DNA of 64,000 bases from assembly GCA_964459995.1 (NCBI GenBank), contig CAYWOR010000009.1, positions 36,891 through 100,890 on the forward strand, in the 5' to 3' direction. The stretch's first letter is position 1; each line of letters starts with the position of its first letter. The notes under the pieces were generated by a model that saw only the letters and a list, made by a program, of their open reading frames with translations, did no database searches and was not told the origin of the DNA. This stretch comes from an uncultured bacterium (GTDB lineage: Bacteria; UBP14; UBA6098). The position numbers and the translations under genes were made by a program. This document shows, in pieces, positions 34,801-58,948 of this stretch.

Positions 34801-37800
34801 TGTGCCGTCCTCGACAATATTACGCGTGTTGGGCACCTCGAATTCGGAGCTTGAAAGATCGATTGTGAACTCGAAATAGTCGTTATTAGTATCGAGGAAA
34901 TTGTTGCCGTTGAGGTCTTCGGTATCTGGCTTTGTTCCGCCTTCGGGGTCTCTGCCGTTGCCTTCAGTGCCGTTGATTTTAGAATAATCGTTCGGATTAT
35001 CTTTGCTCCAGTGCCAGTTGTCGCCGTTAGGGTCTGGATTGTTCACCGGATGGTATCCAGGTTCGAGGCTGTCGGGAAGGCCATCGAGACCTACATCCTC
35101 GGCGGCGCTTAGGATGCCGTCGCGGTAACCTGCGACTTCGAGGTCTTCCGAGTTCAGAACGCCGTCGCCGTTTATATCCTCGTTTATCGAGCCGAAATTA
35201 AAGTGCAGATGTCCCTCATTTCCGCGCACCCAGACTTCGAGGAATCTCGATTTGCTCTGGTCGTGGTAGCCGGTGGTTATATATCTCATAACACCAGCCC
35301 ATTTATCTGTTCCACCGCCGACAGAATCCGGGTCGAATTCCAAAACGAGGACATTGGTTCTCGAATCTTCGGTTGCTACGTCCTTCTGAGGCCATATCTC
35401 CTTCACTGCGACCTTGTCGTAGGGATTATACCAAATTAGGTGCCCGCGATCATCCTGTGTCTTTCCCTGTGGTGCGGAGGATTTTTTCCATGCTGTTCGA
35501 CGAATTTCGAGATTGAAAGTGCTTCTCGACCCTTCAAAATCGTCGATATAAGCCTCGTCCTTTGTGTTCGGATTGCTGATAACCTGCGCAACTTCGGCTG
35601 TGAAACGTATCTTCGATGCTGACTCGGTATGAATTAGGGGGATAGCATTGACCGCATCCGTAATGAATGGCACTTCATAGTCGAGCTGAAGGTCGGCATC
35701 CCAAATGAAAGCCTTGCCGGGTTCACGCCCGATTCGAGGCCTGCGCTCTGCGCTCGATGTGGATTTGTAAATAGCTGTTCCGCCGATCCAGCTTTGTTCG
35801 CCGAAACGATATTCGGCTCTTGCTCCGAGAAGAGCTTTCTGTTCCGGCATGAAGAAAGGCTCGTAATCGAAGTCTATAGTAAGCGTTGTATTGGGGTTTA
35901 AAGCTTCATCGTTGAGGAACGTGATCTGCCCGATTTGATAATCCACACGGTAATCTATACCGCTTTGAAGCCTTCTTCCGCCAAGTTTCACAATTTCGGA
36001 ATTCTCGATAATATTAAATCTGCCGAGGCTCATAGGATTCTGACGCTGTCCGGTTTTCAAACGAATGATGTATTGATGATCCTGTGCGATTTCTGAGCTT
36101 GTCGATGAGGTATACATCGCGCGGACTCTGGGTGTGTTCGGCCCAAGATTCATGCGTGTTGAAGCCATTTCGGCTTCGCTCGGATTAAAAGGATGGAGAA
36201 CGGGAAAAATCAGATGGCCGTCTTGCGGATTAACCATGACCGCATCAACTCTGCCATCGGATTCGTAATTTCCCATTGTGTTAAGCTCGTCGAGACCGAA
36301 AACTTCGAGGAAATTCCTCGGCGGCGATTGTGTTGTATCGCTTCTAATATCGTTTGTTACTGGATTTAGGAATATTTCGACTTCGAGATTATCGGTGTTG
36401 ATGTTTGTCGAACTTAGATAATAGACATTGCGCCAGGTTTGTTCCCAGCAGGGGTTGTTCGACCTCATCGCCGGCGGTCTGATTAAATTTAGCTGTAAGG
36501 TTGTGTCTCCGGATGTCGGGTCGATATACAACCCTCCGACCGTGTCCTGCGTGCCGTCCGCGCGGCGTATAATGTAACTGCATGCGATAGCGTGGTTGTT
36601 GCTCAGAGGATTCGACCCGGTCATATAGAACCATCCGAGCCTTCGGTAAATCTGATAATACTCTTGGCTGATTGTGTGGAAATAGCCTCTGTGACCGACA
36701 TCACTCACATATGGATCGCCGGGATTGGGCATCGCAACACCTTCTATCGCGCCATTTGCGATATTATTCGACGAAATTTGGTCGTCCACCCAAAGTGTGA
36801 ATTCGACGATGCTGTCGCCGGCCATATATGGGTTTGCCGTAACAGGCCAAACGAAGGGATAAATGAAACTCGAATCTATCCAAAAATAGGTCAGGTCGAG
36901 GTAATTATATTCTCTGATGTCGGTCGGTTGTGTAGATGTGTTGCCGGTAATTGTGGTTGTTTCGTGTTGGCCTTTTTCTTGGCTTGCTATGGCTGTTATC
37001 GCCCAATCGCCGATCTGAAACTGGCTCTTAATGCCGAAAAGCCCTTCGACCCTCTCCGAATAGCCCACGAAAGTCGCACCGGGAAGCGAAAGATTTGTGT
37101 TTCCCGCTTCGATTTTCTGGATTATATCGTCCTCTTCGCCGGTAAATGCAATGTTGATAGTATTCTCGAGGTCTGTTTCCCTTTTCGAGTCCTGATCGAC
37201 CGTAACACTTATCTTGCTTCCGATAGTTCCGGTAATCGTGAAACGGCTTTCCTGCTCCATCTGAAGGCTTGGAAACTTGCTCTGATTTGGCCCGAATTCC
37301 TGTCCGGTAATCCATGTGCTTCTGCCGGAAAGGGTTATGCGGCGATATCCCGATACACGAAGCCCCGCGCCGCCCTCGCCGATGATGTCACGCACCCCTT
37401 TTGGAAAATCGATGGGAATCTCGAAACTCAAGCCGTCCCTTCGAGCTTTTGCTTCCTCCTTTGAGCCTTCCCATGCGTTATTGCGCCAATATCTATTGGC
37501 CATGAACAGCTTGAATTGATCAATGGGAACTACTCTCGAGGCATATATCTGCCTGTCGAGAACCCACTCGTCAATAACAACAAAGCCGTCGCCCCAGAAT
37601 ACGACCGCAGAATATCGATGATTAAGGGTCGAATAATCTAATAAAGCCAGCGTAGTGTCAGTTTCGCCAATTCCGGAGAAATCATATAACCCCGGCTGAA
37701 AACGATTTTCGAGGGGGAGGAAGAATCTGCCTTCCTGATGCAGGGAAATATCGACGCCTTGCGCGAAAATTCCGGCGGGAACAAGCGCAAAGAGTAACGC

Positions 37801-37833
37801 AATCGCGATTATATCGAATTTATTCCGCCGCAT
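31804..37833 (-). CDS. sprA: giant outer-membrane beta-barrel protein, putative T9SS translocon SprA/Sov family
   Basis: 2009 aa; signal peptide; ends ...WVELKF with an aromatic terminus. Size, beta-rich composition and the T9SS context (CTD cargo and a PorV-like gene in the window) support the call; no motif-level verification was possible. Confidence 0.5.
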   Translation of the reverse strand: MRRNKFDIIAIALLFALVPAGIFAQGVDISLHQEGRFFLPLENRFQPGLYDFSGIGETDTTLALLDYSTLNHRYSAVVFWGDGFVVIDEWVLDRQIYASRVVPIDQFKLFMANRYWRNNAWEGSKEEAKARRDGLSFEIPIDFPKGVRDIIGEGGAGLRVSGYRRITLSGRSTWITGQEFGPNQSKFPSLQMEQESRFTITGTIGSKISVTVDQDSKRETDLENTINIAFTGEEDDIIQKIEAGNTNLSLPGATFVGYSERVEGLFGIKSQFQIGDWAITAIASQEKGQHETTTITGNTSTQPTDIREYNYLDLTYFWIDSSFIYPFVWPVTANPYMAGDSIVEFTLWVDDQISSNNIANGAIEGVAMPNPGDPYVSDVGHRGYFHTISQEYYQIYRRLGWFYMTGSNPLSNNHAIACSYIIRRADGTQDTVGGLYIDPTSGDTTLQLNLIRPPAMRSNNPCWEQTWRNVYYLSSTNINTDNLEVEIFLNPVTNDIRSDTTQSPPRNFLEVFGLDELNTMGNYESDGRVDAVMVNPQDGHLIFPVLHPFNPSEAEMASTRMNLGPNTPRVRAMYTSSTSSEIAQDHQYIIRLKTGQRQNPMSLGRFNIIENSEIVKLGGRRLQSGIDYRVDYQIGQITFLNDEALNPNTTLTIDFDYEPFFMPEQKALLGARAEYRFGEQSWIGGTAIYKSTSSAERRPRIGREPGKAFIWDADLQLDYEVPFITDAVNAIPLIHTESASKIRFTAEVAQVISNPNTKDEAYIDDFEGSRSTFNLEIRRTAWKKSSAPQGKTQDDRGHLIWYNPYDKVAVKEIWPQKDVATEDSRTNVLVLEFDPDSVGGGTDKWAGVMRYITTGYHDQSKSRFLEVWVRGNEGHLHFNFGSINEDINGDGVLNSEDLEVAGYRDGILSAAEDVGLDGLPDSLEPGYHPVNNPDPNGDNWHWSKDNPNDYSKINGTEGNGRDPEGGTKPDTEDLNGNNFLDTNNDYFEFTIDLSSSEFEVPNTRNIVEDGTDEYWRLYRIPIQDSVYTHNPDGKVHRRKEVGSPDWERIRYSRIWVDGVERYSKIQIAQIELVGNKWEEKTANIEIATKNTHEDGDYVSPPGVTGERSVTTGIMSQEQSLAILYDKVPGQSVASCFRTTFAGESMDLTLYQALDMWVYFNKHVSDDSVLFFFKLGRDANNTYEYRTYLQDGWVESNRVMMDFPEMTAFKNEYQTAISDTSIPNIDPIYRTENGWYIINGSPTLTDVRYFEMGVINPYRFRPISGEIWVDELRVTNVRKEPGWAEKATFSMNFADLADFSGTLERKDSEFHGLNERVGTGRTETVLSLSGGFKPHKFAPDRWGLNLPVSSNFSRRISVPRLKTGSDISVPDTLRQQETTTTKQYSVNITETLKPRDPHWLIGLTLSRLSHSVSAGETREISPTYPLRISRNWNLRQTYDLTPTSKNWNVHLTRWMFADKKDDERTEVDSVEGKPSSPISPPKGTPSRPGARIEDPSVPRLLDLSLNFAPTALRFETNLTGREEERFDRYDTRTYSNEKSLTHTATLNTNIMPPITTGFILSMKRDIGDSAHFRWRHPVVIGNPLSKSISQNVRYTPAMISWLSQNYEIRGEYKEDTDPARYRDRFGVVNLNRSFRASWGIKWKQLGSAIGGTTSGSSPMPPRRETPRDRGGRQGEEEPPTPEQPAPSGSRESTGGLKKALAITKPLFDNLDDLNFDWQFDDRRQIPNLAGRPDLWYQLSLTTDPGVHRVTDSLAATSQIESHTTTEKRNIRTGTRLPFKMTLQARYNYVKNVTISTNNTKQIQTTFPDVTLNWNGLGQIPPFKTLASNARANSNYSYEVRENYESNALKNDVLTHSFNPLVSINMTWKPGISTDYSTNLRNSHERTYSATSVNIRHNYELSHKITAGYSIRGSKGFKLPIIGTLKFENQLTLSLTVQNTTRITESWVEGATGEVSRSRDDVEWSITPSASYNFSRNIRGGLELKWIDTNNRRIEQITHVRDVSIWVELKF

Positions 37834-46378: not shown

Positions 46379-46879
46379 TTACCTGCGAATAGCCTCTCCA
46401 ATAGACCATTCGAGAGTTGCCATGTTCCGAATATATGCGCTGTCGGGCAAAAGAGGGGGGACGGAAACACTATCAACAATGTTGCCCTCTGTATCGAAAA
46501 GCCCCACCCATTCGCCATCTGCACTGATACGGAAACCGGCGTGATTGGATCCCTGTTCGGGTTGTCCATCGCACCATATTAGCATTGTCGAATCAGACAA
46601 AAGCGACGTTGGTGCGGGGAATACATATCGAATCGAATCTGGTCTATCAGAAAGAACCCAACCGCTGAGTATTACCGAGGTGTCTTGTGGGTTGTAAATA
46701 ACTACAAAATCGTCGAATTCTCCGAACTCGTCAGCTTCAATTGAGGTGTTATTGGATACGATTTCGATCATATAGACTGTGTGCCAAACGCTCGGTGGCT
46801 CGGAATCCGGTTTGTATGGCGATTTTGTGCATCCAAAAAATAGGATAACAGCCGAAAGTATGGGGAAAAGCGCTCTCAT
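46379..46879 (-). CDS. lamin-tail-domain (LTD) lipoprotein
   Basis: 166 aa; lipobox FFGCTK; LTD-like core (IEIVSNNTSIEADEFGEFDDFVVIYNPQDTSVILSGWVLSD...IRYVFP); last gene of the operon. Confidence 0.55.
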   Translation of the reverse strand: MRALFPILSAVILFFGCTKSPYKPDSEPPSVWHTVYMIEIVSNNTSIEADEFGEFDDFVVIYNPQDTSVILSGWVLSDRPDSIRYVFPAPTSLLSDSTMLIWCDGQPEQGSNHAGFRISADGEWVGLFDTEGNIVDSVSVPPLLPDSAYIRNMATLEWSIGEAIRR

Positions 46880-47805
46880 TAAAACCTCGCTGAAGCTTGA
46901 ATTTTCAGTTCAGAGCGTGGCGAATCACTTTCGATAAAGCTTGTCTGCGCACATAAGCGAGTTTTTGTTGTCGGATCGAAAGCTACGCCGAGATGTGCCC
47001 GATTCTCCGAATCCGATTCTTCGGAAATGCTTTCGTAATGAACATAAGGGGTGAATTTACCGATGGAATATTTAACCCAAGCCTGCCAACCTTCGAATTC
47101 TTCACCGCTGAGAATGCTATTTCCGGTTATAAATTCACCTCCGAATTCGCCACCCAAGTATTGGGCAATTGTGCCGATTTCCCACGCATTTCGCCATTCG
47201 AGGCCGAGGCTGTCGATTCCGGTTCCGAAAGAACCGACGATATCTATAGATTTGGTCGGCGAATAGATTAGTCTTCCGGAGAAATGCTTCTCGCTGGTGC
47301 GGACATCATAGTCCCTTCCGTTGAAAAGCCCGAAGTCATACTCGATTTGATATGGTTCCTGAAAGAATTTTCCAATGATCCATGCGCCAATATCTCTGTC
47401 GAGATAGCCGGTGTCATCGAGAAGTGCGTGAACTTCGCTCCAATCAGCAGATGGCGAGTCGTTTAAACCAAGTAATTCTTCGATTCCGAAGGGTTTGCGT
47501 CGTCTTCCGATTCCGACACTAAATGCCCTGCTTTGTTTCCATTCGATATAGGCATCCCGAAGGCCGGCAAAGCTCGAATTAAGGTCGAAAGATAACCTTG
47601 TAGAAATTAAAAGGCTGTCCTCCGAAATGAAATCGGCATCTAATTTTGCACGGATTCTTCGAAGATAGAACTCGTTATTTGGATAAATCTCGCGTGAATC
47701 CCATTTCCATCCGGCAATAACCTCACCGCCGACATCGATATCGACCTTAGCAGTAACAAATCCGCAAAACAGAATGAAAGAAGCAATAAAAAGCCGAGGG
47801 TTCAT
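46879..47805 (-). CDS. porin-like outer-membrane beta-barrel protein
   Basis: Start at MNPRLFIASFILFCGF (signal peptide); alternating amphipathic beta-strand pattern; C-terminal ...IQASARF with an aromatic terminus; 4-nt overlap with the upstream gene. Confidence 0.5.
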   Translation of the reverse strand: MNPRLFIASFILFCGFVTAKVDIDVGGEVIAGWKWDSREIYPNNEFYLRRIRAKLDADFISEDSLLISTRLSFDLNSSFAGLRDAYIEWKQSRAFSVGIGRRRKPFGIEELLGLNDSPSADWSEVHALLDDTGYLDRDIGAWIIGKFFQEPYQIEYDFGLFNGRDYDVRTSEKHFSGRLIYSPTKSIDIVGSFGTGIDSLGLEWRNAWEIGTIAQYLGGEFGGEFITGNSILSGEEFEGWQAWVKYSIGKFTPYVHYESISEESDSENRAHLGVAFDPTTKTRLCAQTSFIESDSPRSELKIQASARF

Positions 47806-48695
47806 TGTTCGATTTCCATATCGTCTATTTCGGAGGATTTTTCGCGTTTCCACGCGATGCGAAGAATATCAGCGCTGTTCAATTCCTCAGCTACGTTGTT
47901 TCTATCGATATTCCCGGAAATCTCGACCTCGATCTCTGTTTGATCTTTCTCGGGTCCGCGGTCGCTTCTTACTCGCTTGATTTTATATACGATGTCATCG
48001 TCGTCGAGAAGATCTTTAATCTGGGTTAATGTTGCATCCGGATTCGTTGTTCGGACACGCAGGTTCCAATTCCAATTTGTTGAGAATAATGATTTTTTGA
48101 GACCTTTTGGCATATGTTCGAAAAGGAACACCATCGCGACGATATAGAGCGTTACAATAATCGCCAAAGGATACAGCCCGACTCCGCATGCCATGCCCAC
48201 ACCGAGCGCTATTACCAGCGAACTTGCCTCTTTAGGGGATTTAAGTGAATAACGATAGCGCACGATCGACGCCGCGCCCATAAGCCCAAAAGCGCGTGCA
48301 ATCTGGCTTCCGATAATCATCATCATAAGCGCCGCGGCAATCGAGAGAACGATATGCGCCTCGGTGAAATCCATCTGTGCCTTCCCGCCGCCGCTCCGGT
48401 AGCTTATTAGCCCCGATAATACGGATGTAAGCAGAAGGGTTGCGAGAATATTTAGTGCACTGCTCCAGTCAGTGTTCCAGAGCGGTTTCAGAGGAGCTCC
48501 GCCCTCCGCCGGAGGGCCTTCGGATCGGGTCTGTCCCGATGATGAGGAGAAAATCGAATCGACAGTCTGCGCGAGCAGAGTAGTTGAGATATCAATTCTG
48601 TCGAAAAGCTTCCCATGACCAAGTAAAGCAATCATCGCGATAATCGCGAGAATTATCAAAGCAGTTCCCCAGAAACGCGAATGGATTAATTTCAT
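47802..48695 (-). CDS. DUF4956-like integral membrane protein
   Basis: 297 aa; 4-5 TM helices followed by an acidic C-terminal soluble tail; resembles the DUF4956 family that co-occurs with VTC/polyphosphate-related genes; ATGA overlap with the upstream gene. Confidence 0.45.
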   Translation of the reverse strand: MKLIHSRFWGTALIILAIIAMIALLGHGKLFDRIDISTTLLAQTVDSIFSSSSGQTRSEGPPAEGGAPLKPLWNTDWSSALNILATLLLTSVLSGLISYRSGGGKAQMDFTEAHIVLSIAAALMMMIIGSQIARAFGLMGAASIVRYRYSLKSPKEASSLVIALGVGMACGVGLYPLAIIVTLYIVAMVFLFEHMPKGLKKSLFSTNWNWNLRVRTTNPDATLTQIKDLLDDDDIVYKIKRVRSDRGPEKDQTEIEVEISGNIDRNNVAEELNSADILRIAWKREKSSEIDDMEIEQ

Positions 48696-50677
48696 AATAG
48701 AAGCCCGCTTTTCGCTCTGTCGCTCTTTGTTTTAAGCCTTTCGGCGCGATTTCTGTCAACGAGAACTGTCAAGCCGAACTCCTTCTCGAATAGGTCCTTT
48801 TTGTTCAAAACCGATTTCCGCTCGGCTTTTGCGGAATTGACAGAATTCAAATCCAATATAATCGAGTTCAGCTCTCGCGACAAACGCAATTTCAAAACAA
48901 TCTGTTTATCGGAGGAATCGAGCGCATCTGCGACGCGAAGTATTCCGGCGAGTTTTCTTACCGCGAACTGCTCTTCGGCGCGAAGTTTCCATTGACGCGG
49001 ATTATCGAGCGACTTTTCCGAACCGTTATGATATAATGCACAGATTGCTATTATTCGCTTTTCTCGGTCGGAAAGGCGTGAGAATTTATTATCCATAATG
49101 ATTCGATAGCTGTGCATTTCGTGTTCGTCGCCCATTGACCGGCCAACATCGTGAAGAAGCGATGAATACTCGAGAAGCCGCCTTGCATTATCATTTAAAC
49201 CGTGGATATCCACAGTGGCGTCGAATATCTGAACCGCGAATCCTCGAACTTTTTGGGCATGCTCGAAATAGCCGTTATGCGCATGATAAAGTTCGAGCAC
49301 CTCGCGAAGTTCCTTATCGATAGCTTTCGTCTTCGGATCGATCCCGATTGTGCCGGCGACGATATCGATAATCGGCGCATAAAGCTCGGAGGGGTCTTCG
49401 TTTTCAGCGACAATAGGTATTCCGTCGGCTTCTGCAAACGGTTTATAAAGATTCGACATCTTTAAATCGGTGTTATCTGGGCAGTCGATAAACACCGCGG
49501 CATCCGGCCTGTAAGCAAAGCCTTTCAGATTTTCGACCAACCAATCTCTGTCAAAGTTTGATGACAGACAATCCGCAAATGCCGAATAGAAGGAGTCTTT
49601 GAGGATTACAATTTCGCCGCGTTCCAGAGCGGGGATTACCTCGGTATCCATAAGATATGCCATCTCGCTTAGAGAGAGCATTACTTTCTTAATCGGTGTA
49701 ATCGCGCCTTTTTCTTTGGCCGGAATGATAATCTCGGAGGTTATCCAGCTTTCTCCGGCACCGGTTTTTGCCACCCCGATGTTTCTTATCTGAAGCCAGT
49801 CATAAAGTGCGTTGACCTGATGTGTGATAGCTTCTTTATTGCATCCCTCGATTGTTATGAGTTTGCCGGGCAAGTTGTGCGGGGGGAGTTCGCTGATTAA
49901 TCCGGAAATCTGGTGTTTTTTAAGATCGTCATGGTAAAGGGTTCTATCCTCTATTTGCGATCGAATGTGAAGGGGTTTTTCATCTGGAGATTTGTCGAGC
50001 TTTTCGAGAAAAGGCTCGATTTTTTCGATTATTGAAGCGAAAATCTCGTCCACATTACAATTCATACAGATAGGACTTAATTCTCCGCTTATGACCAAAC
50101 TCTGATATACCTTATCGACCCTTCCCTGAAATTCTCTGAAGGATTCCGCCGGATCGCTTTCACCGGAAACATCCATTCCGCATTCGTAGTATTTCGGCAC
50201 ATTGCCGTTTTTCTTCATAGAGCGACTTAGGGCAATATCAATCGGAAGATCGCACAAGAATGCAATGTCCGGTTCGATAGCCAGAGAATATATCCTTTTG
50301 ACCCATTCGATATCGACTCCACGGGCTTCATCGCGGGCGAGGGCAGTGTAGGAATACCTGTCTGCGATGACGATTTTTCCCTCGTTCAGCAAAGGTATGA
50401 TAAGGTTCTCATGCCTATTGAGAAAATCGGCGGCATGAAGCGCGCTGAAACATGAAGGAGTAAGAAGGTGAGCCTTTTTTGCACGTTTAGTAGCTCGGCT
50501 GATGTATCTACTGGAATTCCAAGTTGTAACCTCAACCGAATATCCCTTTTCTTCGAGATAATTTGCAAGCCGTTTAACCTGCGTGCTTTTCCCCGCGCCG
50601 TCCAAGCCCTCGAAAACTATTAAAAGTCCCGGACGGTTTGCTATTTTCTCATCAGCATGTATCGTTGGATTTGTCAT
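48692..50677 (-). CDS. fusion protein: thymidylate-kinase-like domain (intact P-loop) + second thymidylate-kinase-like domain (degenerate P-loop) + C-terminal HD-domain resembling the Ppx/GppA C-terminal domain
   Basis: 661 aa. Domain 1 has LLIVFEGLDGAGKSTQ and a DRY motif; domain 2 has ITIEGCNKEAITHQ with GKS lost; C-terminal LLHDVGRSMGDEHEMHSYRI...ALYHNG is an HD-type hydrolase motif. Confidence 0.6.
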   Translation of the reverse strand: MTNPTIHADEKIANRPGLLIVFEGLDGAGKSTQVKRLANYLEEKGYSVEVTTWNSSRYISRATKRAKKAHLLTPSCFSALHAADFLNRHENLIIPLLNEGKIVIADRYSYTALARDEARGVDIEWVKRIYSLAIEPDIAFLCDLPIDIALSRSMKKNGNVPKYYECGMDVSGESDPAESFREFQGRVDKVYQSLVISGELSPICMNCNVDEIFASIIEKIEPFLEKLDKSPDEKPLHIRSQIEDRTLYHDDLKKHQISGLISELPPHNLPGKLITIEGCNKEAITHQVNALYDWLQIRNIGVAKTGAGESWITSEIIIPAKEKGAITPIKKVMLSLSEMAYLMDTEVIPALERGEIVILKDSFYSAFADCLSSNFDRDWLVENLKGFAYRPDAAVFIDCPDNTDLKMSNLYKPFAEADGIPIVAENEDPSELYAPIIDIVAGTIGIDPKTKAIDKELREVLELYHAHNGYFEHAQKVRGFAVQIFDATVDIHGLNDNARRLLEYSSLLHDVGRSMGDEHEMHSYRIIMDNKFSRLSDREKRIIAICALYHNGSEKSLDNPRQWKLRAEEQFAVRKLAGILRVADALDSSDKQIVLKLRLSRELNSIILDLNSVNSAKAERKSVLNKKDLFEKEFGLTVLVDRNRAERLKTKSDRAKSGLLL

Positions 50678-50695: not shown

Positions 50696-52762
50696 TTATT
50701 TCAAATAGATAATTTTTTTCACAACTTCACTATTCTCTGAAACTACTCGAACATAGAAGACGCCGGAGCTTGTTTTTTCATTGGGGTTCCAAACAATCTG
50801 CCTGCGGTTATTGCCGGGAGAATCTTCGCATATGTCCATTACAGCCGAATTGTTCAAATTAAGATGATCTATTTGCCTACCTGAGATGTCGAAGATTTCG
50901 ATGCTCTCGATTCGCATTTCTGTGCCCTCGATTTCGATACGACAAGACGAGTTGAAGGGATTTGGGTAGGTTAACAGAGTTAAACCTGTCGGAACCGACA
51001 GGCCATTTGAATATATTGCCGACCATGAATTTTCCGCACCGGGTGTGGCTTCGAGGCAAATCTGCCATGTTGCGCTTCCATTGGGATATCTGCCCCAGCT
51101 TTCATCACGTTCCAAACCCATCCACGAAACGCTGTCGGATAATTGTGCGCCGATAAAATCCGAACCGAAAATAGCCAATTCCTCCTCATCCTTATTGAGT
51201 TTGAAAGTTGCATGAAGAGGTCCCTGTCCGGGGTCGTCATCTGCCCAAACCACCAGATAACCGCCTGCTGGGATCACCGTTCCGGACGGAAAACTCCACT
51301 TTCGCGGGTTTGATAAATTGTCGGTGGCAAACCAATAAGAGATGTCGATAGTTGTATCGGCTGGATTGTAAACCTCGAACCAGTCGTCGAATTGATCGGC
51401 TTCATCTGCTATTGTAGAGCCGTTAGAAGCCATAAGCTCGTTTATTAAAACAACACCGGAGACATCGAGCCTTTCGCAACCTCCGACAACACCTGCGATA
51501 TATGCATATCTGTCCATGATAAAATCCCTGAGGCCCGGGATTGTTCCCATTCCGCCTCCGCCACCGCCCCCGCCCCCGCTGGAGTAATCATAATCGAGAT
51601 TTGTCTCGAAAGCCGCATTGGAGAACTGTTTGTTAACATCGTCATAAACATAAGGTCGAACGAGATCGGCAAGTTCAGTTACTCTCGCGTTGAAAGTTAC
51701 TGTATCGAGAGTTGTCTCCATCAGCTCTCGAATAGCACAATTTACAAGCCCCCAAAAAGGCTCCCAGTTTTCGAAACATCTTTTAGCCAGAGGACGTCCG
51801 CTACTTCCGGGGGGAAAGCCTCCACCGGTGCTATACCAATCGATACGCATCTCACGCATACCAGTAGCCGAAAGACCTGAATTATATCCCCCAAAGGCCA
51901 TATTGAGGTCATAAACGATATAGCGGGCTATGTTGTTTGAATCGAAATAGAGGAAATAGTTACTTCCCGCGCCGGGGTAGCTGTTCAGATTGACAATGAA
52001 AGTATTTGCGGCCCACATACGAGCGAATGTAATCGCATCGAACCGGTCGAGCAGTTCGGACGAAAAGGTAGTATTATCTGTATTATTTAGAAAATTGATG
52101 AAGTTAAGCAGGTCGCTCCAATCCTCGTCCAGATTAGTCTCCTTTTCATAACCTCCATAGGAGGCTGGATCCCAGCCTTGCCACGTCAGAGGAGCGTTTT
52201 CGTCGCAATTATACAACCCCCCGCTTTTTTCACTGAAAAAGAGTGTCAACGCGTCTTTGTTCACTGGAGTAACAACATTATAAAATCCCCAGTAAATATC
52301 GTTGTAATACACGACACAGAAAGCGGAGCGAGAACATGGAACGTTCAGTCCCTGAAATATCTCGCAGGAAAGGTGTTCCCGAAGAAAGGTCGGGTCGTTA
52401 TAGCAGTTAGAGAAAGTAAGCCGTTGGTTCCCTCTATAGCTCCTTTTATCGATATATTCGTCGATTTTCAGATGAAATGGTTTCTTGTTGCCCGGATGGT
52501 TGAAGGAACTGAATCCCTTCAATCGAATACCGACGCTGTCCAATGTATCGACGGCATCGAAAACGACCTTGCACATTATGTATTCTTCGGTGGTATGTGT
52601 GGCGTAAAGCTCTGTCCAATAGCTGGGATTATCGAAGTAAACATGAACGGTATGGACGGTATCGCCAAAATAATCCCCGAATACAGATGAAATAAATAGA
52701 AGGGAAAATAAGGCGACTAAGAATGAATATATTTTTCCGGCTTTCAACATTTGAAGCTCCAA
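50696..52762 (-). CDS. CotH-kinase-family protein with lamin-tail domain and T9SS C-terminal sorting domain (paralogue A)
   Basis: 688 aa; signal peptide; CotH blocks (NDPTFLREHL...VYYNDIYWGFY, NYFLYFD...YIVYDLNMAFG); a GGGGGGGGG linker; LTD (LINELMASNG...WFEVYNP...YWFATD); CTD (YPNPFNSSCRIEIEG...VFYVRVV...KKIIYLK). Confidence 0.75.
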   Translation of the reverse strand: MELQMLKAGKIYSFLVALFSLLFISSVFGDYFGDTVHTVHVYFDNPSYWTELYATHTTEEYIMCKVVFDAVDTLDSVGIRLKGFSSFNHPGNKKPFHLKIDEYIDKRSYRGNQRLTFSNCYNDPTFLREHLSCEIFQGLNVPCSRSAFCVVYYNDIYWGFYNVVTPVNKDALTLFFSEKSGGLYNCDENAPLTWQGWDPASYGGYEKETNLDEDWSDLLNFINFLNNTDNTTFSSELLDRFDAITFARMWAANTFIVNLNSYPGAGSNYFLYFDSNNIARYIVYDLNMAFGGYNSGLSATGMREMRIDWYSTGGGFPPGSSGRPLAKRCFENWEPFWGLVNCAIRELMETTLDTVTFNARVTELADLVRPYVYDDVNKQFSNAAFETNLDYDYSSGGGGGGGGGMGTIPGLRDFIMDRYAYIAGVVGGCERLDVSGVVLINELMASNGSTIADEADQFDDWFEVYNPADTTIDISYWFATDNLSNPRKWSFPSGTVIPAGGYLVVWADDDPGQGPLHATFKLNKDEEELAIFGSDFIGAQLSDSVSWMGLERDESWGRYPNGSATWQICLEATPGAENSWSAIYSNGLSVPTGLTLLTYPNPFNSSCRIEIEGTEMRIESIEIFDISGRQIDHLNLNNSAVMDICEDSPGNNRRQIVWNPNEKTSSGVFYVRVVSENSEVVKKIIYLK

Positions 52763-55700
52763 TTGTTGTATAACGCAATTATTTCAAATAGGTTATCTTG
52801 ATTATTTCGGAGTTTTCACTCGATTTGATTTTAACCAGATATATTCCCGAACTGAGCGTTTCGTCCGGTCTCCAGCTGACAGAATGGCGATTTGAACCCC
52901 CACTCTTGTTATCGTCCGCGCAAAATTCTCCTAATAATAACCCGTCAATTTTTTTGCCGGTAATATCGAATATTTCAACACTCCCATCCCTTAACCCACC
53001 ATTCTCGATTTCAATTCGCACCGAGGAATTGAAAGGATTCGGATAGGCGGAGAGACGTAACTCGCCGGGAAGAGGCGAATTTTCTTGAACAACGAAGCTC
53101 CAGGCATTCACGGCACCGGGTGTGGCTTCAAGACAAATTTGCCATGTTGCGCTTCCATTTGGATAACGTCCCCAACTGCTGTCTCGGGGCATATCTGCCC
53201 ATGAAACCGAGTCGCAAAGTGTATTGCCATAGAAATCCGGCCCGAATAGCGCGACCTCCTCGCGGTCGGCATCGAGTTTGAAACTTGCATGAAGCGGCCC
53301 CTGCTCGGCGTCGTTGTCAGCCCAGATAAGTAGATAACTATCAGGGGCGATAATCGTTCCATTAGGGAGAGTCCATTTACGCGGTTCGGTTATGTCATCA
53401 GTCGCGAACCAGAAAGACAAATCCACCGCCGTATCCGCCGGATTGTAAAGCTCGAACCAGTCGTCGAATTCCCCCTCCTCGTCGGAAATGGTCGTCCCGT
53501 TCGATGCCATGACCTCATTAATTAACACAGCACCTGCGACATCGACGGCATCGCAGGGCATGAGAACGGAAGAGATGTATAATCCTCTATCGTAGATGAA
53601 GTCCCTAAGCCCGGGAATAAGGCCTCCACCGGGGGGAGGGCCTCCGCCGATATCGTCGTTGAGGTTAGTCTCGAAGTTGGCGTTGCTATACATCTTGTTC
53701 GGATCGGCGTAAACATAGGGGCGGACTAAATCCGCGAGTTCTGTTACTCTGTCCGAGAAAGTCGAGTATTCCAGTGTTGTCGATAAAAGTTCGTGCAAGG
53801 CGCAATGGACTAATCTTGTGAAAAGAGGGTAGTCGCTGAAAAGCCTTTGAGCCAGAGGCCTGTTCGATGAATGCCAGTCGATTGCGAGGTTGCGCATCGC
53901 TGTGCCGTTCATGCCCATAGCGAAAACGCCGAAAGCTTCGTTAATATCCCAAACGATATATCTTCCGATGCCGTCGGAATCGAAATATAGATAGTAATTA
54001 TGTCCCGAACCCTGATAGCTGTCGAGGTTCACTAAGAATGTGTTCGCCGCCCACATTCGAGCGAAACTGAACATGTCGAACCAATCGTGCATTCCCGCCC
54101 GAAAATCTACCGCAGATGTATTATTGATGAAATTACAGAACCCGACGAGGTCGCTCCAATCGTCGATATCCTCGTTTGTAGATTTCTCGTAACGGGTTCT
54201 ATATGGCCCATCCGTAGCGCCAAGCCACTCAAAGGTGCCGCTTGGGTCGCCTTTATAAAGATTAGCGTCGTTTTCTCCGAAAAAGCGGGTTAACGCGTCT
54301 TTATTGATAGGATCGACAACAGTGTAAAACCCCCAATAAGTATCGTTATAGTAAACAACAGCCCATGTCGCACGAGGACATGGCACACCGAGACCTCTGA
54401 ATATCTCGCTCGCAAGCTTCTCGCGAAGGAATGTCGGGTCTTTGAAACAGTTATTGAATGTCAAACGCTCGTTGCCGCGGTATTCTCTTCCGCCGATATA
54501 TTCGTCGATTTTGAGATGAAAGGGCTTTTTGTTCCCCGGATGTCCGAAAGAGCTGTTGCCTTTGAGGCGAATTCCCACGCTGTCCAATGTATCGACAGCA
54601 TCGAAAACGACCTTGCACATCATGTATTCTTCGGTGGTATGTGTGGCGTAAAGCTCTGTCCAATAGCTGGGATTATCGAAGTAAACATGAACGGTATGGA
54701 CGGTATCGCCAAAATAATCCCCGAATACAGATGAAATAAATAGAAGGGAAAATAAGGCGACTAAGAATGAATATATTTTTCCGGCTTTCAACATTTGAAG
54801 CTCCAATTGTTGTATAACGCAATTATTTCAAATAGGTTATCTTGATTATTTCGGAGTTTTCACTCGATTTGATTTTAACCAGATATATTCCCGAACTGAG
54901 CGTTTCGTCCGGTCTCCAGCTGACAGAATGGCGATTTGAACCCCCACTCTTGTTATCGTCCGCGCAAAATTCTCCTAATAATAACCCGTCAATTTTTTTG
55001 CCGGTAATATCGAATATTTCAACACTCCCATCCCTTAACCCACCATTCTCGATTTCAATTCGCACCGAGGAATTGAAAGGATTCGGATAGGCGGAGAGAC
55101 GTAACTCGCCGGGAAGAGGCGAATTTTCTTGAACAACGAAGCTCCAGGCATTCACGGCACCGGGTGTGGCTTCAAGACAAATTTGCCATGTTGCGCTTCC
55201 ATTTGGATAACGTCCCCAACTGCTGTCTCGGGGCATATCTGCCCATGAAACCGAGTCGCAAAGTGTATTGCCATAGAAATCCGGCCCGAATAGCGCGACC
55301 TCCTCGCGGTCGGCATCGAGTTTGAAACTTGCATGAAGCGGCCCCTGCTCGGCGTCGTTGTCAGCCCAGATAAGTAGATAACTATCAGGGGCGATAATCG
55401 TTCCATTAGGGAGAGTCCATTTACGCGGTTCGGTTATGTCATCAGTCGCGAACCAGAAAGACAAATCCACCGCCGTATCCGCCGGATTGTAAAGCTCGAA
55501 CCAGTCGTCGAATTCCCCCTCCTCGTCGGAAATGGTCGTCCCGTTCGATGCCATGACCTCATTAATTAACACAGCACCTGCGACATCGACGGCATCGCAG
55601 GGCATGAGAACGGAAGAGATGTATAATCCTCTATCGTAGATGAAGTCCCTAAGCCCGGGAATAAGGCCTCCACCGGGGGGAGGGCCTCCGCCGATATCGT

Positions 55701-56679
55701 CGTTGAGGTTAGTCTCGAAGTTGGCGTTGCTATACATCTTGTTCGGATCGGCGTAAACATAGGGGCGGACTAAATCCGCGAGTTCTGTTACTCTGTCCGA
55801 GAAAGTCGAGTATTCCAGTGTTGTCGATAAAAGTTCGTGCAAGGCGCAATGGACTAATCTTGTGAAAAGAGGGTAGTCGCTGAAAAGCCTTTGAGCCAGA
55901 GGCCTGTTCGATGAATGCCAGTCGATTGCGAGGTTGCGCATCGCTGTGCCGTTCATGCCCATAGCGAAAACGCCGAAAGCTTCGTTAATATCCCAAACGA
56001 TATATCTTCCGATGCCGTCGGAATCGAAATATAGATAGTAATTATGTCCCGAACCCTGATAGCTGTCGAGGTTCACTAAGAATGTGTTCGCCGCCCACAT
56101 TCGAGCGAAACTGAACATGTCGAACCAATCGTGCATTCCCGCCCGAAAATCTACCGCAGATGTATTATTGATGAAATTACAGAACCCGACGAGGTCGCTC
56201 CAATCGTCGATATCCTCGTTTGTAGATTTCTCGTAACGGGTTCTATATGGCCCATCCGTAGCGCCAAGCCACTCAAAGGTGCCGCTTGGGTCGCCTTTAT
56301 AAAGATTAGCGTCGTTTTCTCCGAAAAAGCGGGTTAACGCGTCTTTATTGATAGGATCGACAACAGTGTAAAACCCCCAATAAGTATCGTTATAGTAAAC
56401 AACAGCCCATGTCGCACGAGGACATGGCACACCGAGACCTCTGAATATCTCGCTCGCAAGCTTCTCGCGAAGGAATGTCGGGTCTTTGAAACAGTTATTG
56501 AATGTCAAACGCTCGTTGCCGCGGTATTCTCTTCCGCCGATATATTCGTCGATTTTGAGATGAAAGGGCTTTTTGTTCCCCGGATGTCCGAAAGAGCTGT
56601 TGCCTTTGAGGCGAATTCCCACGCTGTCCAATGTATCGACAGCATCGAAAACGACCTTGCACATCATGTATTCTTCGGT
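52531..56679. repeat. period-2044-bp direct tandem repeat (about 2.03 units; essentially identical except 2 mismatches near the 5' ends of A/B)
   Basis: The sequence at x and x+2044 is identical across 52779-54635 vs 54823-56679, and near-identical for 52531-52778 vs 54575-54822. Duplicated antisense ORFs sit at constant +2044 offsets in the ORF track. Confidence 0.85.
52779..54806 (-). CDS. CotH-kinase-family protein with LTD and T9SS CTD (paralogue B; chimeric: A-like 5' end, C-identical body)
   Basis: 675 aa; the first ~65 codons are near-identical to paralogue A; the remaining ~610 codons are identical to paralogue C. Confidence 0.75.
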   Translation of the reverse strand: MELQMLKAGKIYSFLVALFSLLFISSVFGDYFGDTVHTVHVYFDNPSYWTELYATHTTEEYMMCKVVFDAVDTLDSVGIRLKGNSSFGHPGNKKPFHLKIDEYIGGREYRGNERLTFNNCFKDPTFLREKLASEIFRGLGVPCPRATWAVVYYNDTYWGFYTVVDPINKDALTRFFGENDANLYKGDPSGTFEWLGATDGPYRTRYEKSTNEDIDDWSDLVGFCNFINNTSAVDFRAGMHDWFDMFSFARMWAANTFLVNLDSYQGSGHNYYLYFDSDGIGRYIVWDINEAFGVFAMGMNGTAMRNLAIDWHSSNRPLAQRLFSDYPLFTRLVHCALHELLSTTLEYSTFSDRVTELADLVRPYVYADPNKMYSNANFETNLNDDIGGGPPPGGGLIPGLRDFIYDRGLYISSVLMPCDAVDVAGAVLINEVMASNGTTISDEEGEFDDWFELYNPADTAVDLSFWFATDDITEPRKWTLPNGTIIAPDSYLLIWADNDAEQGPLHASFKLDADREEVALFGPDFYGNTLCDSVSWADMPRDSSWGRYPNGSATWQICLEATPGAVNAWSFVVQENSPLPGELRLSAYPNPFNSSVRIEIENGGLRDGSVEIFDITGKKIDGLLLGEFCADDNKSGGSNRHSVSWRPDETLSSGIYLVKIKSSENSEIIKITYLK

Positions 56680-56826
56680 TTCGTGGGTTTCATAAAGTTC
56701 TGTCCAGAAACCTGAGTCGTCGAAATAGACTCGCACGGTATGAACTGTATCGCTAAAATAGCTCGCTTGTGCTGTTAGAATTGTTGAAAATGCAAATAGG
56801 ATAGCGAATTTGAAGAGCTTTCTCAT
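54823..56826 (-). CDS. CotH-kinase-family protein with LTD and T9SS CTD (paralogue C)
   Basis: 667 aa; its own signal peptide (MRKLFKFAILFAFSTILTAQA); CotH blocks (KDPTFLREKL...VYYNDTYWGFY, HNYYLYFDSDGIGRYIVWDINEAFG); LTD; CTD ending IIKITYLK. Confidence 0.75.
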   Translation of the reverse strand: MRKLFKFAILFAFSTILTAQASYFSDTVHTVRVYFDDSGFWTELYETHETEEYMMCKVVFDAVDTLDSVGIRLKGNSSFGHPGNKKPFHLKIDEYIGGREYRGNERLTFNNCFKDPTFLREKLASEIFRGLGVPCPRATWAVVYYNDTYWGFYTVVDPINKDALTRFFGENDANLYKGDPSGTFEWLGATDGPYRTRYEKSTNEDIDDWSDLVGFCNFINNTSAVDFRAGMHDWFDMFSFARMWAANTFLVNLDSYQGSGHNYYLYFDSDGIGRYIVWDINEAFGVFAMGMNGTAMRNLAIDWHSSNRPLAQRLFSDYPLFTRLVHCALHELLSTTLEYSTFSDRVTELADLVRPYVYADPNKMYSNANFETNLNDDIGGGPPPGGGLIPGLRDFIYDRGLYISSVLMPCDAVDVAGAVLINEVMASNGTTISDEEGEFDDWFELYNPADTAVDLSFWFATDDITEPRKWTLPNGTIIAPDSYLLIWADNDAEQGPLHASFKLDADREEVALFGPDFYGNTLCDSVSWADMPRDSSWGRYPNGSATWQICLEATPGAVNAWSFVVQENSPLPGELRLSAYPNPFNSSVRIEIENGGLRDGSVEIFDITGKKIDGLLLGEFCADDNKSGGSNRHSVSWRPDETLSSGIYLVKIKSSENSEIIKITYLK

Positions 56827-58778: not shown

Positions 58779-58948
58779 AGCATAATACTACCTCAGAGAA
58801 AAGGCATCTATTATCTGCAATTCAAATCGAGCCGGTATGTTATTGAAGACGAATATAACGGCTCTCAATCATATATCATTTCGATAAATCGAAAATTTCC
58901 TTGCGAAAACCCCTCGCGCGATTTATATCTCCCGAAAAAGGACACGAA

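What the first reader, a model, noticed from the sequence alone, without database searches (positions are those of the whole stretch)
50696..56826. Array of three tandem secreted CotH-kinase / lamin-tail / T9SS-CTD paralogues
Three consecutive minus-strand genes (688, 675 and 667 aa) share one architecture. Each has a signal peptide, a CotH atypical-kinase domain with conserved blocks (NDPTFLRE...VYYND.YWGFY...NLYK and NY(F/Y)LYFDS...Y(I/V)(V/W)D(L/I)N.AFG), a Gly-rich linker, a lamin-tail domain and a T9SS C-terminal sorting domain. They are therefore predicted to be extracellular or surface-attached protein kinases exported through T9SS.

Paralogue A is diverged from B and C, which points to an old duplication. 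B and C are identical, which points to a very recent one. Targets of secreted bacterial CotH kinases outside spore formers are essentially unknown.
Basis: partly seen in the sequence, partly recalled or inferred. Interest (0 to 1): 0.7.

Follow-up and report, generated by a model that had tools for sequence, protein, structure and literature searches.

The report
Secreted CotH-kinase gene pair, recently triplicated
An uncultured Zixibacteria-like bacterium carries a conserved pair of exported CotH-type kinase genes, a common kind of gene, and in this assembly a fresh 2-kb tandem duplication has added a third, hybrid copy, while one of the original two has lost its catalytic aspartate.

Summary
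The three minus-strand ORFs exist exactly where stated. All three hit CotH (PF08757), LTD (PF00932) and the type-A T9SS sorting domain (PF18962/TIGR04183) above the curated cut-offs.

Three points need correction.
- **B is a chimera, not a copy of C.** Residues 1-61 are A's and the last 618 are C's. It arose from one perfect 2,044-bp tandem duplication with a 14-nt junction. Up to 23 public contigs with an identical C gene show the two-gene array, as do sister strains. The third copy is therefore specific to this strain or assembly.
- **The A/C split is old.** It is conserved in at least two other lineages.
- **A has lost its catalytic Asp.** C and B keep the D/N/D catalytic set of B. cereus CotH. 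A alone among 48 homologues has Asp→Asn there. Its kinase core is a deeply divergent allele (pS 0.80 against 0.07-0.09 in the flanks).

The genes head a conserved operon: Tmk/HD(Ppx-III) fusion, DUF4956/MgtC-like membrane protein, phosphate-porin-like protein and an LTD lipoprotein. Relatives carry VTC plus DUF4956 instead.

The architecture is widespread (at least 1,387 homologues), so this is a new member of a known kind. Substrates remain unknown.

The parts
54823..56826 (-). Gene C (667 aa), the C-type paralogue. It has a signal peptide (MRKLFKFAILFAFSTILTAQA|S), CotH aa 71-374 (nt 55705-56616), a GGGPPPGGG linker, LTD aa 416-528 (55243-55581) and a type-A T9SS CTD aa 580-662 (54841-55089). 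The catalytic set is intact: K74 (KGNSS), Y176 (NLYKG), D254 (NLDSY, nt 56059-56073), N262 and W278-D279.
   Evidence: AF2 model has pLDDT 86. Foldseek top hits are 5JDA/5JD9 at TMt 0.86. The gene is nt-identical to gene 1 of L029.
52779..54806 (-). Gene B (675 aa from TTG; 671 aa from the ATG at 54794). It is a chimera: aa 1-61 equal A (signal peptide and first beta-strands) and aa 58-675 equal C aa 50-667. The catalytic set is intact (NLDSY at nt 54015-54029).
   Evidence: The exact 671-aa product is on record in only one NCBI contig of 100,890 bp.
50696..52762 (-). Gene A (688 aa from TTG; 684 aa from the ATG at 52750), the A-type paralogue. It has CotH aa 79-383, a G9 linker, LTD aa 436-531 and a CTD aa 599-685. 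The catalytic-loop Asp is replaced by Asn (NLNSY, nt 51977-51991). KGNSS is changed to KGFSS and NLY to GLY. N (SNY) and D (YDLN) are kept.
   Evidence: The 684-aa form is identical to public protein P0013, listed on 9 contigs.
52578..56679 (.). Perfect tandem direct repeat of two 2,044-bp units plus 14 nt. Each unit holds the C body, the 16-nt spacer and the A-type 5' end. This duplication created gene B.
   Evidence: an exact 2,058-bp run at offset 2,044 with no mismatches. It is absent from L001-L003 and L029.
54622..54635 (-). Recombination junction: 14 nt (ACCGAAGAATACAT in gene sense) shared by A and C. It lies at the edge of a 59-nt stretch with only 2 A/C mismatches.
   Evidence: alignment of A, B, C and the sister-strain gene.
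51728..52480 (-). Kinase-core segment of A (about aa 95-345). It is a deeply divergent allele compared with the sister strain's gene 2.
   Evidence: 48-72% nt identity here against 96-100% downstream; pS 0.80 and pN 0.23 here against pS 0.07-0.09 in the flanks; this segment is 64% aa identical to P0012, while the C-terminal part is 98% identical.
48692..50677 (-). Operon gene 4: a 661-aa cytoplasmic fusion. It has an N-terminal thymidylate-kinase-like P-loop domain, a second degenerate one, and a C-terminal HD domain of the Ppx/GppA domain-III type. It starts 18 nt after the stop of A.
   Evidence: 2PLR E 6e-48; exopolyphosphatase 8JGT E 4e-7. Conserved downstream of CotH in L001-4, L025, L029 and L032.
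47802..48695 (-). Operon gene 5: a 297-aa DUF4956/MgtC-like membrane protein. It overlaps the previous stop by 4 nt.
   Evidence: A DUF4956 gene lies downstream of (L021: near) CotH in 7 of 8 lineages examined at ≥46% identity, plus L021.
46879..47853 (-). Operon gene 6: an outer-membrane protein like the phosphate-selective porin O/P. It is 324 aa from GTG; public calls give 308 aa starting at 47805.
   Evidence: PF07396 E 1.6e-5, 24.8 bits against a cut-off of 20.9.
46379..46879 (-). Operon gene 7: a 166-aa LTD-only protein with a lipoprotein-type signal (…ILFFGC).
   Evidence: LTD E 2e-14; sequence. Conserved in L001-2, L004, L025 and L032.
31804..37833 (-). SprA-like T9SS translocon gene (2,009 aa). 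It shows that the organism has the secretion system the CTDs require.
   Evidence: SprA_N E 9e-34.

Best explanation
**Shown**
- The locus is a conserved pair of paralogous genes, C-type then A-type, in a Zixibacteria-like bacterium. Each encodes signal peptide + CotH (Fam20C-like atypical kinase fold) + Gly linker + lamin-tail domain + type-A T9SS sorting domain.
- The pair heads a tightly packed operon: CotH genes → Tmk/HD(Ppx-III) fusion → DUF4956/MgtC-like membrane protein → porin O/P-like protein → LTD lipoprotein.
- In this assembly the 5' ends of A and C are joined at a 14-nt shared stretch, with a duplicated 2,044-bp unit. The result is a third, in-frame hybrid gene B with A's leader and first 61 residues and C's body.
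- C and B keep every motif that aligns to the B. cereus CotH active site. A has Asn at the catalytic Asp and changes in two other nucleotide-site motifs, but otherwise keeps the fold-conserved positions. Its kinase core is an allele imported or retained from a deeply divergent lineage.

**Inferred**
- The junction arose by unequal recombination between the two paralogues.
- The proteins cross the inner membrane by Sec and the outer membrane by T9SS. The CTD is then removed, and they stay on or near the cell surface.
- C and B act there as phosphotransferases on a surface or extracellular substrate, with the LTD as a binding or spacer module.
- A acts as a catalytically impaired partner or binding protein, comparable to the Asp→Asn pseudokinase HER3.
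- The operon partners handle a phosphate-containing compound across the envelope that this surface chemistry needs.
For: **Architecture and fold**
- 5JDA E 9e-22, TMt 0.86; profile against 5JD9, E 3e-37.

**Catalytic mapping**
- B. subtilis D228Q and D251A are inactive (PMC7821199).
- CotH keeps the equivalents of PKA D166/N171/D184 and stacks adenine between Tyr142 and Trp245 (PMC12189002).
- The profile alignment puts C D254/N262/D279 on the Bc D/N/D and C Y176/W278 on the stacking pair.
- D254 is conserved in 47 of 48 sequences, and only A differs. N262, D279 and K74 are invariant.
- A deviates at only 3 of 60 conserved columns, and all three lie in active-site motifs.

**Chimera and duplication**
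-.
- The two-gene state is seen in sister strains and in contigs with an identical C gene.
- The chimeric product is on one contig only.

**Old A/C split**
-.

**Allelic replacement in A**
-.

**T9SS, taxon and operon**
- SprA is present in the window.
- GlmS is 87% identical to Zixibacteria proteins.
- Operon conservation, and replacement of Tmk/HD + porin by HlyD-like + VTC.
- A CotH + VTC-like polyP polymerase + DUF4956 cassette is already described next to Gram-positive pel operons (PMC7112168; bioRxiv 10.1101/2024.04.20.589940).
Against: - No activity, substrate or localisation data exist for any protein of this clade.
- The catalytic loop carries a 3-residue insertion relative to B. cereus CotH (D…N spacing 8 rather than 5). 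I could not inspect model coordinates to check the geometry.
- ATP is scarce outside cells, so a classical extracellular ATP-dependent protein kinase needs a donor that has not been identified.
- The third copy could be an assembly error, since I had no reads.
- One relative at 47% identity (L030) and more distant ones (L028, most of L005-L024) lack the operon partners. The link is therefore clade-specific or facultative.
- The signal peptide was judged by eye, with no SignalP run.
Confidence: 0.65

Rival explanations
1. Three bona fide paralogous, catalytically competent extracellular protein kinases form a stable three-gene array. A comes from an old duplication and B from a simple recent whole-gene duplication of C.
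For: All three have the full domain set above HMM cut-offs. B and C share 618 identical residues. A is 60.7% identical to C.
Against: - B's first 61 residues and its upstream spacer are A's, so the duplicated unit is not a gene but a 2,044-bp segment straddling two genes.
- Sister strains and contigs with an identical C gene have two genes.
- A lacks the catalytic Asp that 47 of 48 relatives keep.
Confidence: 0.1
2. Gene B is an assembly or library artefact and the real chromosome has the two-gene array. The chimeric join would come from in-vitro template switching or chimeric reads between the similar 5' regions of A and C, or from a mis-resolved strain mixture.
For: - The chimeric product is recorded on a single contig, while 23 contigs carry the identical C gene. 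The one shown has two genes and the other 22 were grouped with it as similar places.
- The two repeat copies have zero differences over 2,058 bp.
Against: - Assemblers usually collapse perfect repeats rather than create them.
- The junction lies in a shared stretch of only 14 nt, shorter than usual assembly k-mers. Junction-spanning k-mers must therefore exist in reads.
- The join is in frame, at homologous positions, and has exactly the A-5'/C-3' polarity expected for the gain product of unequal crossing-over between tandem paralogues.
- Scans for the junction in JGI metagenome contigs were uninformative because the parental control also gave 0 hits.
Confidence: 0.2
3. The CotH modules are not protein kinases here. 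They would phosphorylate a non-protein acceptor such as a surface glycan or exopolysaccharide, as the Fam20B and POMK relatives do in animals. Alternatively they would act mainly as non-catalytic adhesins, like the Mucorales CotH invasins.
For: - CotH cassettes sit next to exopolysaccharide (pel) operons in Gram-positives.
- A relative carries a malectin (carbohydrate-binding) domain fused to CotH (L027).
- Cellulosomal CotH proteins occur among carbohydrate-active enzymes.
- A has lost its catalytic Asp yet is under purifying selection (pN 0.23 against saturated pS), which suggests a binding role.
- Mucorales CotH proteins bind host receptors (PMC9973265).
Against: - The only biochemically characterised members, B. 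subtilis and B. cereus CotH, are Ser/Thr protein kinases.
- There is no polysaccharide-synthesis gene in the immediate operon.
- C and B keep all catalytic residues, which argues against a purely adhesive role for them.
Confidence: 0.3

Closest known systems
Bacillus CotH spore-coat protein kinase (B. cereus 5JD9/5JDA; B. subtilis CotH)
   Same: - Same Pfam family (PF08757, E 1e-57).
- Same fold (TMt 0.86, rmsd 3.2 Å).
- Same catalytic D/N/D and adenine-stacking aromatic pair in C and B.
   Different: - About 20% identity.
- A 3-residue insertion in the catalytic loop.
- The proteins are exported (signal peptide + T9SS CTD) and fused to an LTD.
- The host is a non-sporulating candidate phylum.
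- There are no CotB/CotG-like neighbours.
- A lacks the catalytic Asp.
'CotH kinase family protein' with LTD and a C-terminal sorting or anchor module in FCB-group, Planctomycetota, Acidobacteria and similar MAGs (database annotation)
   Same: The CotH + LTD + Por_Secre_tail/FlgD_ig/dockerin architecture is identical. There were 1,387 homologues at E ≤ 1e-5 among the candidates scored and 5,013 representative clusters for the CotH core.
   Different: Most relatives carry 2-4 LTD repeats and are 800-1,100 aa. The window's clade has one LTD and is tied to a specific operon.
CotH / VTC-like polyphosphate polymerase / DUF4956(MgtC-like) accessory cassette of Gram-positive pel operons (S. intermedius SIR_1594-1592)
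   Same: A secreted CotH protein is encoded together with a DUF4956/MgtC-like membrane protein and a cytoplasmic phosphate-metabolism enzyme. Relatives of the window's genes (L027, L031, L021) have the same VTC + DUF4956 pair.
   Different: - In the window's lineage VTC is replaced by a Tmk/HD(Ppx-III) fusion.
- A porin O/P-like protein and an LTD lipoprotein are added, as expected for a diderm envelope.
- There is no pel operon.
- FN3 is replaced by LTD + T9SS CTD.
- The published cassette has no known function, and its deletion gave no clear phenotype.
Cellulosomal CotH proteins of Clostridium thermocellum (CseP Cthe_0044; Cthe_0239 = LTD-LTD-Fn3-CotH-dockerin)
   Same: An extracellular CotH module is combined with LTD and a C-terminal module that fixes the protein to a cell-surface structure.
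   Different: Anchoring is through dockerin/cohesin rather than T9SS, the host is Gram-positive, and the domain order differs.
Pseudokinases with Asp→Asn at the catalytic base (for example HER3/ErbB3; from general knowledge)
   Same: A keeps the fold and most conserved positions but has Asn at the catalytic Asp. It sits beside an intact paralogue.
   Different: This is a different kinase superfamily branch. No partner interaction has been shown.

Membership tests
CotH kinase family (PF08757) | Significant match to the family HMM over the whole domain | tested here: met
   A 169 bits, B 193 bits and C 193 bits against a cut-off of 23.8, covering profile positions 1 to about 300 of 322.
CotH kinase family (PF08757) | Atypical protein-kinase-like fold of B. 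cereus CotH | tested here: met
   the AF2 model of C (pLDDT 86) against 5JDA gives E 8.7e-22, TM (target) 0.86 and rmsd 3.2 Å. Only C, and hence B's body, was modelled.
CotH kinase family (PF08757) | Catalytic Asp (PKA D166, Bs D228), Asn (N171) and metal-binding Asp (D184, Bs D251) | tested here: met
   For C and B: D254/N262/D279 in C numbering align to the Bc D/N/D. These positions are conserved in 47-48 of 48 homologues. Caveat: a 3-residue insertion lies between D and N.
CotH kinase family (PF08757), active-enzyme subset | The same catalytic Asp in paralogue A | tested here: not met
   A has NLNSY (Asn260 of the 688-aa ORF), and also KGFSS for KGNSS and GLY for NLY. A is a family member by HMM but is predicted to be catalytically impaired.
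CotH kinase family (PF08757) | Adenine-sandwiching aromatic pair (Bc Tyr142/Trp245) | tested here: met
   C has Y176 and W278. A and all A-type orthologues have Tyr at the Trp position, so an aromatic is kept.
CotH kinase family (PF08757) | Phosphotransferase activity on Ser/Thr of protein substrates | not testable with these tools
   Needs biochemistry.
T9SS type-A cargo (TIGR04183 / PF18962) | C-terminal sorting-domain HMM match at the extreme C-terminus | tested here: met
   27.9, 35.8 and 35.8 bits against a cut-off of 23; 30.9, 39.6 and 39.6 bits against 27. The matches end 3-5 residues from the C-terminus.
T9SS type-A cargo (TIGR04183 / PF18962) | N-terminal Sec signal peptide | tested here: inconclusive
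   By inspection only. C has MRKLFKFAILFAFSTILTAQA|SYF and A/B have MLKAGKIYSFLVALFSLLFISSVFG|DYF. AF2 gives a low-confidence N-terminal helix at 2-22. No signal-peptide predictor was available.
T9SS type-A cargo (TIGR04183 / PF18962) | The host encodes the T9SS machinery | tested here: met
   a SprA_N protein of 2,009 aa at 31804-37833. Other components (PorU/V, GldKLMN) were not looked for and are not in the parts of the window I annotated.
Lamin tail domain (PF00932) | HMM match and Ig-like LTD fold | tested here: met
   48-55 bits against a cut-off of 34.3; the model matches the lamin-B2 tail 2LLL (TM target 0.63).
CotH-VTC-DUF4956 cassette (pel-associated, Gram-positive) | Adjacent genes for a secreted CotH, a VTC-like polyP polymerase and a DUF4956/MgtC-like membrane protein | tested here: not met
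   CotH and DUF4956 are present, but there is no VTC domain and a Tmk/HD(Ppx-III) fusion stands in its place. Relatives L027, L031 and L021 do meet it. The window's operon is a variant, not a member.

The most novel reading that the evidence does not exclude
The operon encodes an envelope-spanning supply line for an extracellular kinase. A cytoplasmic enzyme (Tmk/HD-Ppx fusion here, VTC-like polyphosphate polymerase in relatives) would make polyphosphate or another phosphoanhydride donor. The DUF4956/MgtC-like protein would pass it across the inner membrane, and the porin O/P-like protein (or an HlyD-like adaptor in relatives) would carry it across the outer layers. T9SS-displayed CotH enzymes, positioned by LTDs, would then use it instead of ATP to phosphorylate surface or environmental targets. 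This would answer how secreted bacterial CotH kinases are fuelled outside the cell. It would also give DUF4956 and the Gram-positive pel-linked CotH/VTC/DUF4956 cassette a function.
Probability: 0.12. Interest if true: 0.8.

Novelty: new member of a known kind. Interest (0 to 1): 0.35.

Why it matters
Secreted CotH-family kinases are very common in uncultured FCB-group and other bacteria, yet none has a known substrate or phosphoryl donor. This locus does not change that by itself.

It does offer three concrete handles.
- **A natural active/inactive pair.** C and B are intact and A has Asp→Asn. This is suited to testing whether catalysis matters.
- **A conserved operon.** It ties the kinases to a DUF4956 membrane protein and to phosphate or polyphosphate-type enzymes in two interchangeable versions. 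The CotH-VTC-DUF4956 link, previously reported only beside Gram-positive pel operons, therefore extends to diderm, T9SS-bearing lineages.
- **A clean snapshot of how tandem surface-protein families grow and shuffle.** It shows unequal crossing-over and replacement of a whole kinase core between strains.

Tried and rejected
- **Primary CotH paper.** I tried to read Nguyen et al. 2016 and its commentary for residue numbering, but neither is held. The mapping therefore rests on PMC7821199, PMC12189002 and my alignments.
- **phmmer gap placement.** The single-sequence phmmer alignment put C's Gln on the Bc catalytic Asp, which would have made all three pseudokinases. I rejected this after the 48-sequence profile aligned NLD to NFD with a 3-residue insertion, and the Asp proved conserved in 47 of 48 sequences.
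- **Word-index search with A's kinase core.** It returned only two weak hits and not even A itself, so it was uninformative.
- **Exhaustive representative search.** It found no close donor for A's core; the nearest non-self hit was 53% identical.
- **Junction scans.** Exact-pattern scans of JGI metagenome contigs gave 0 hits for the chimeric junction and 0 for the parental control. They say nothing about artefact versus real.
- **Exact-product look-ups.** The look-up of window C said 'not on record', although P0124/L029 is identical. Look-ups of P0013 and of B also failed. The window's own source contig could not be fetched.
- **Promoter and terminator scan.** Counts were within about one (promoter-like) to two (terminator-like) SD of the shuffle means.
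- **RNA features and composition.** There were no Rfam or tRNA hits in the window. Base composition gives no sign of foreign origin.
- **Fast in-situ evolution of A's core.** I considered and rejected this, because synonymous sites are saturated while pN is only 0.23.


Full report
**1. Observation**

The window holds three adjacent minus-strand ORFs exactly at the stated coordinates:
- A, 50696-52762, 688 aa
- B, 52779-54806, 675 aa
- C, 54823-56826, 667 aa

Pfam places CotH (PF08757), LTD (PF00932) and Por_Secre_tail (PF18962) in each, all above the gathering scores. CotH E-values run from 2e-49 to 1.2e-57. NCBIfam's type-A T9SS sorting-domain model TIGR04183 is above its cut-off in all three.

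A and B most likely start at an ATG four codons into the ORF, giving 684 and 671 aa. Public gene calls use these starts.

An AlphaFold2 model of C, built on a 48-sequence alignment, has mean pLDDT 86. Its best structural matches are B. cereus CotH 5JDA/5JD9 (E 9e-22, target TM 0.86, rmsd 3.2 Å). The LTD part matches the lamin-B2 tail.

**2. B is a chimera made by one tandem duplication**

Gene-by-gene alignment shows that B equals A over its first ~185 nt and equals C from nt ~171 to the end. On the chromosome this is a single exact 2,058-bp run at an offset of 2,044 bp: 52578-54635 equals 54622-56679. That amounts to two perfect 2,044-bp units overlapping by 14 nt.

Each unit holds the body of C, the 16-nt spacer and the 5' end of the A-type gene. 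The 14-nt overlap (ACCGAAGAATACAT) is common to A and C. It sits at the edge of a 59-nt stretch with only two A/C mismatches.

At protein level, B 1-61 equals A 1-61 and B 58-675 equals C 50-667. An A-5'/C-3' hybrid between C and A is the expected gain product of unequal crossing-over between two tandem paralogues.

**3. The third copy is private to this assembly**

Three JGI contigs from sister strains (98.6-99% nt identity in the flanks) carry only two CotH genes in the same context.

A protein identical to window C (P0124) is carried by 23 contigs. The one shown (L029) has a C gene identical at every nucleotide and an A protein identical at every residue, and it has a two-gene array. The other 22 were grouped with it as similar places.

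The chimeric 671-aa product is on record on a single NCBI contig of 100,890 bp.

I could not obtain reads, so an artefact cannot be excluded. Several points favour a real, very recent event, and I give the artefact reading about 0.2:
- The junction is shorter than usual assembly k-mers.
- It is in frame and at homologous positions.
- It has the polarity expected for real recombination.

Exact-pattern scans for the junction in JGI metagenome contigs were uninformative, because the parental control also returned nothing.

**4. The A/C split is old, and A is a mosaic**

In neighbour-joining trees the kinase cores fall into a C-type and an A-type clade, each with members from several lineages. The tandem pair is also present in a lineage at ~67% identity (L025: 693 + 681 aa). 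P0004 and P0014 likewise share a contig.

Window A was compared with the sister strain's gene 2 (P0012):
- The first ~70 and last ~350 codons differ little (pS 0.09 and 0.07).
- Codons ~70-345 have saturated synonymous divergence (pS 0.80) with pN 0.23.
- The core is 64% identical in protein while the rest is 98% identical.

This is an allelic replacement of the kinase core by recombination with a deeply diverged A-type sequence, not rapid local evolution. No close donor exists among 1.84 billion representatives; the nearest non-self hit is 53% identical.

**5. Catalytic residues**

Published work establishes the reference points:
- B. subtilis CotH D228Q and D251A are inactive (PMC7821199).
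- CotH keeps the equivalents of PKA D166, N171 and D184.
- CotH sandwiches adenine between Tyr142 and Trp245 (PMC12189002).

A profile built from 48 homologues hits 5JD9 at E 3e-37. It aligns nLDSYqgsghNYY to NFD---GFVHNY and ivWDlne to IPWDYDA.

C D254, N262 and D279 are therefore the D/N/D set, with a clade-wide 3-residue insertion in the catalytic loop. C Y176 and W278 are the stacking pair. N262, D279 and K74 are invariant, and D254 is present in 47 of 48 sequences.

The single exception is window A (NLNSY). A departs from 60 columns that are ≥90% conserved at only three positions: N76F in KGNSS, N174G in NLYKG, and D254N. All three lie in active-site motifs.

A thus looks like a folded but catalytically impaired CotH protein. 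B and C look competent.

**6. Context**

GlmS in the window is 87% identical to proteins named candidate division Zixibacteria. A 2,009-aa SprA-like T9SS translocon is encoded at 31804-37833.

Downstream of A, on the same strand, four genes follow with gaps of 18 nt or less, or with overlaps:
- a 661-aa fusion of thymidylate-kinase-like P-loop domains with an HD domain of the Ppx/GppA domain-III type
- a DUF4956/MgtC-like membrane protein
- a porin O/P-like protein
- a 166-aa LTD-only lipoprotein

Operon conservation across relatives:

| Lineage (CotH identity) | Genes downstream of CotH |
|---|---|
| L032 (71%), L025 (67%), L004 (66%) | Same operon, with one or two CotH genes |
| L031 (55%), L027 (46%) | HlyD-like adaptor, VTC domain protein, DUF4956 protein |
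| L021 | VTC and DUF4956 close to CotH-LTD genes |
| L030 (47%) and more distant relatives | Partners absent |

A CotH + VTC-like polyphosphate polymerase + DUF4956 cassette has been described beside Gram-positive pel operons, with no function assigned (PMC7112168; bioRxiv 10.1101/2024.04.20.589940). The present data extend that link to diderm, T9SS-bearing bacteria. They also show an alternative partner set.

**7. Mechanism**

The following are shown:
- the architecture and the fold
- the catalytic motif status of A, B and C
- the duplication structure
- the conserved operon
- the presence of SprA

The following are inferred from established knowledge of T9SS and of Bacillus CotH:
- Sec export, T9SS translocation and CTD removal, and surface or extracellular location
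- phosphotransfer by C and B
- a non-catalytic or regulatory role for A
- B as a dosage-increasing extra copy of C carrying A's leader

The repeated phosphate theme of the partners suggests that the operon moves a phosphate-rich compound to the surface. The partners in question are the Tmk-like kinase, the Ppx-type HD domain or VTC, the MgtC-like protein and the porin O/P-like protein. The compound could possibly be the phosphoryl donor. This is speculative (about 0.12).

Rival functional readings, a glycan kinase or an adhesin, remain open.

**8. Comparison and novelty**

The CotH + LTD + sorting-module architecture is widespread and routinely annotated as 'CotH kinase family protein'. There were 1,387 homologues at E ≤ 1e-5 among the scored candidates and 5,013 representative clusters for the core. 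It also occurs in cellulosomes with dockerins.

The finding is therefore a new member of a known kind. The chimeric duplication, the Asp→Asn allele and the operon variant are modest additions.

Full-text searches found no study of T9SS-exported CotH proteins or their targets.

**9. Verdict**

Interest is 0.35.

Noticed in passing
window 46379-50677 (-), with L004, L025, L032: A conserved four-gene tail of the operon: a Tmk-like/HD(Ppx domain III) fusion, a DUF4956/MgtC-like membrane protein, a porin O/P-like protein and an LTD-only lipoprotein. The genes are translationally coupled (4-nt and 1-nt overlaps). All have a phosphate theme.
   Followed up: partly
L027 12749-15339; L031 3574-6156; L021 2222-7006: Relatives at 46-55% CotH identity replace Tmk/HD + porin + LTD with an HlyD-like adaptor (369-370 aa), a VTC-domain protein and DUF4956. 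This is the same trio reported beside Gram-positive pel operons, but here it is in T9SS-bearing bacteria without pel genes in view. The 2024 preprint had not found the trio outside pel operons.
   Followed up: partly
window 51728-52480 (-) against L001 12300-13050: Two strains that are about 99% identical in the flanks carry kinase-core alleles of gene A with saturated synonymous divergence. Only the window's allele has the Asp→Asn change. Both alleles circulate: P0013 is listed on 9 contigs and P0012 on 3.
   Followed up: yes
window 31804-37833 (-): A 2,009-aa SprA-like T9SS translocon gene (SprA_N E 9e-34).
   Followed up: no
window 59408-63856 (-): A 1,482-aa Gly/Ser/Tyr/Thr-rich repetitive ORF with no Pfam or NCBIfam hit. 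The gene at the corresponding position has a different length in related contigs: 1,512 aa (L002/L003), 1,551 aa (L029) and 1,900 aa (L001).
   Followed up: no
window 39198-41270 (-) and 44060-46069 (+): Two transglutaminase-core proteins lie near the operon, one of them with DUF3857. The second has a faint Por_Secre_tail hit in the sister strain (L001 18521-20755) and converges on the operon's 3' end.
   Followed up: no
window 58901-59335 (+): A small SnoaL/CaMKII-association-domain-like protein (144 aa) lies next to an oxaloacetate decarboxylase alpha / pyruvate carboxylase B subunit gene (57117-58778). That gene is divergently oriented from gene C across a 290-nt AT-rich spacer.
   Followed up: no
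whole window: There are no tRNA genes and no Rfam family at gathering threshold in 64 kb. GC is an even 0.44-0.50, with no compositional island at the CotH array.
   Followed up: yes
tool behaviour (against 51, 52, 54): Exact-product look-ups reported window C, P0013 and the 671-aa B as 'not on record'. Yet cluster look-up and L029 show identical products in the collection. The window's own source contig (probably the 100,890-bp NCBI contig) could not be retrieved.
   Followed up: partly
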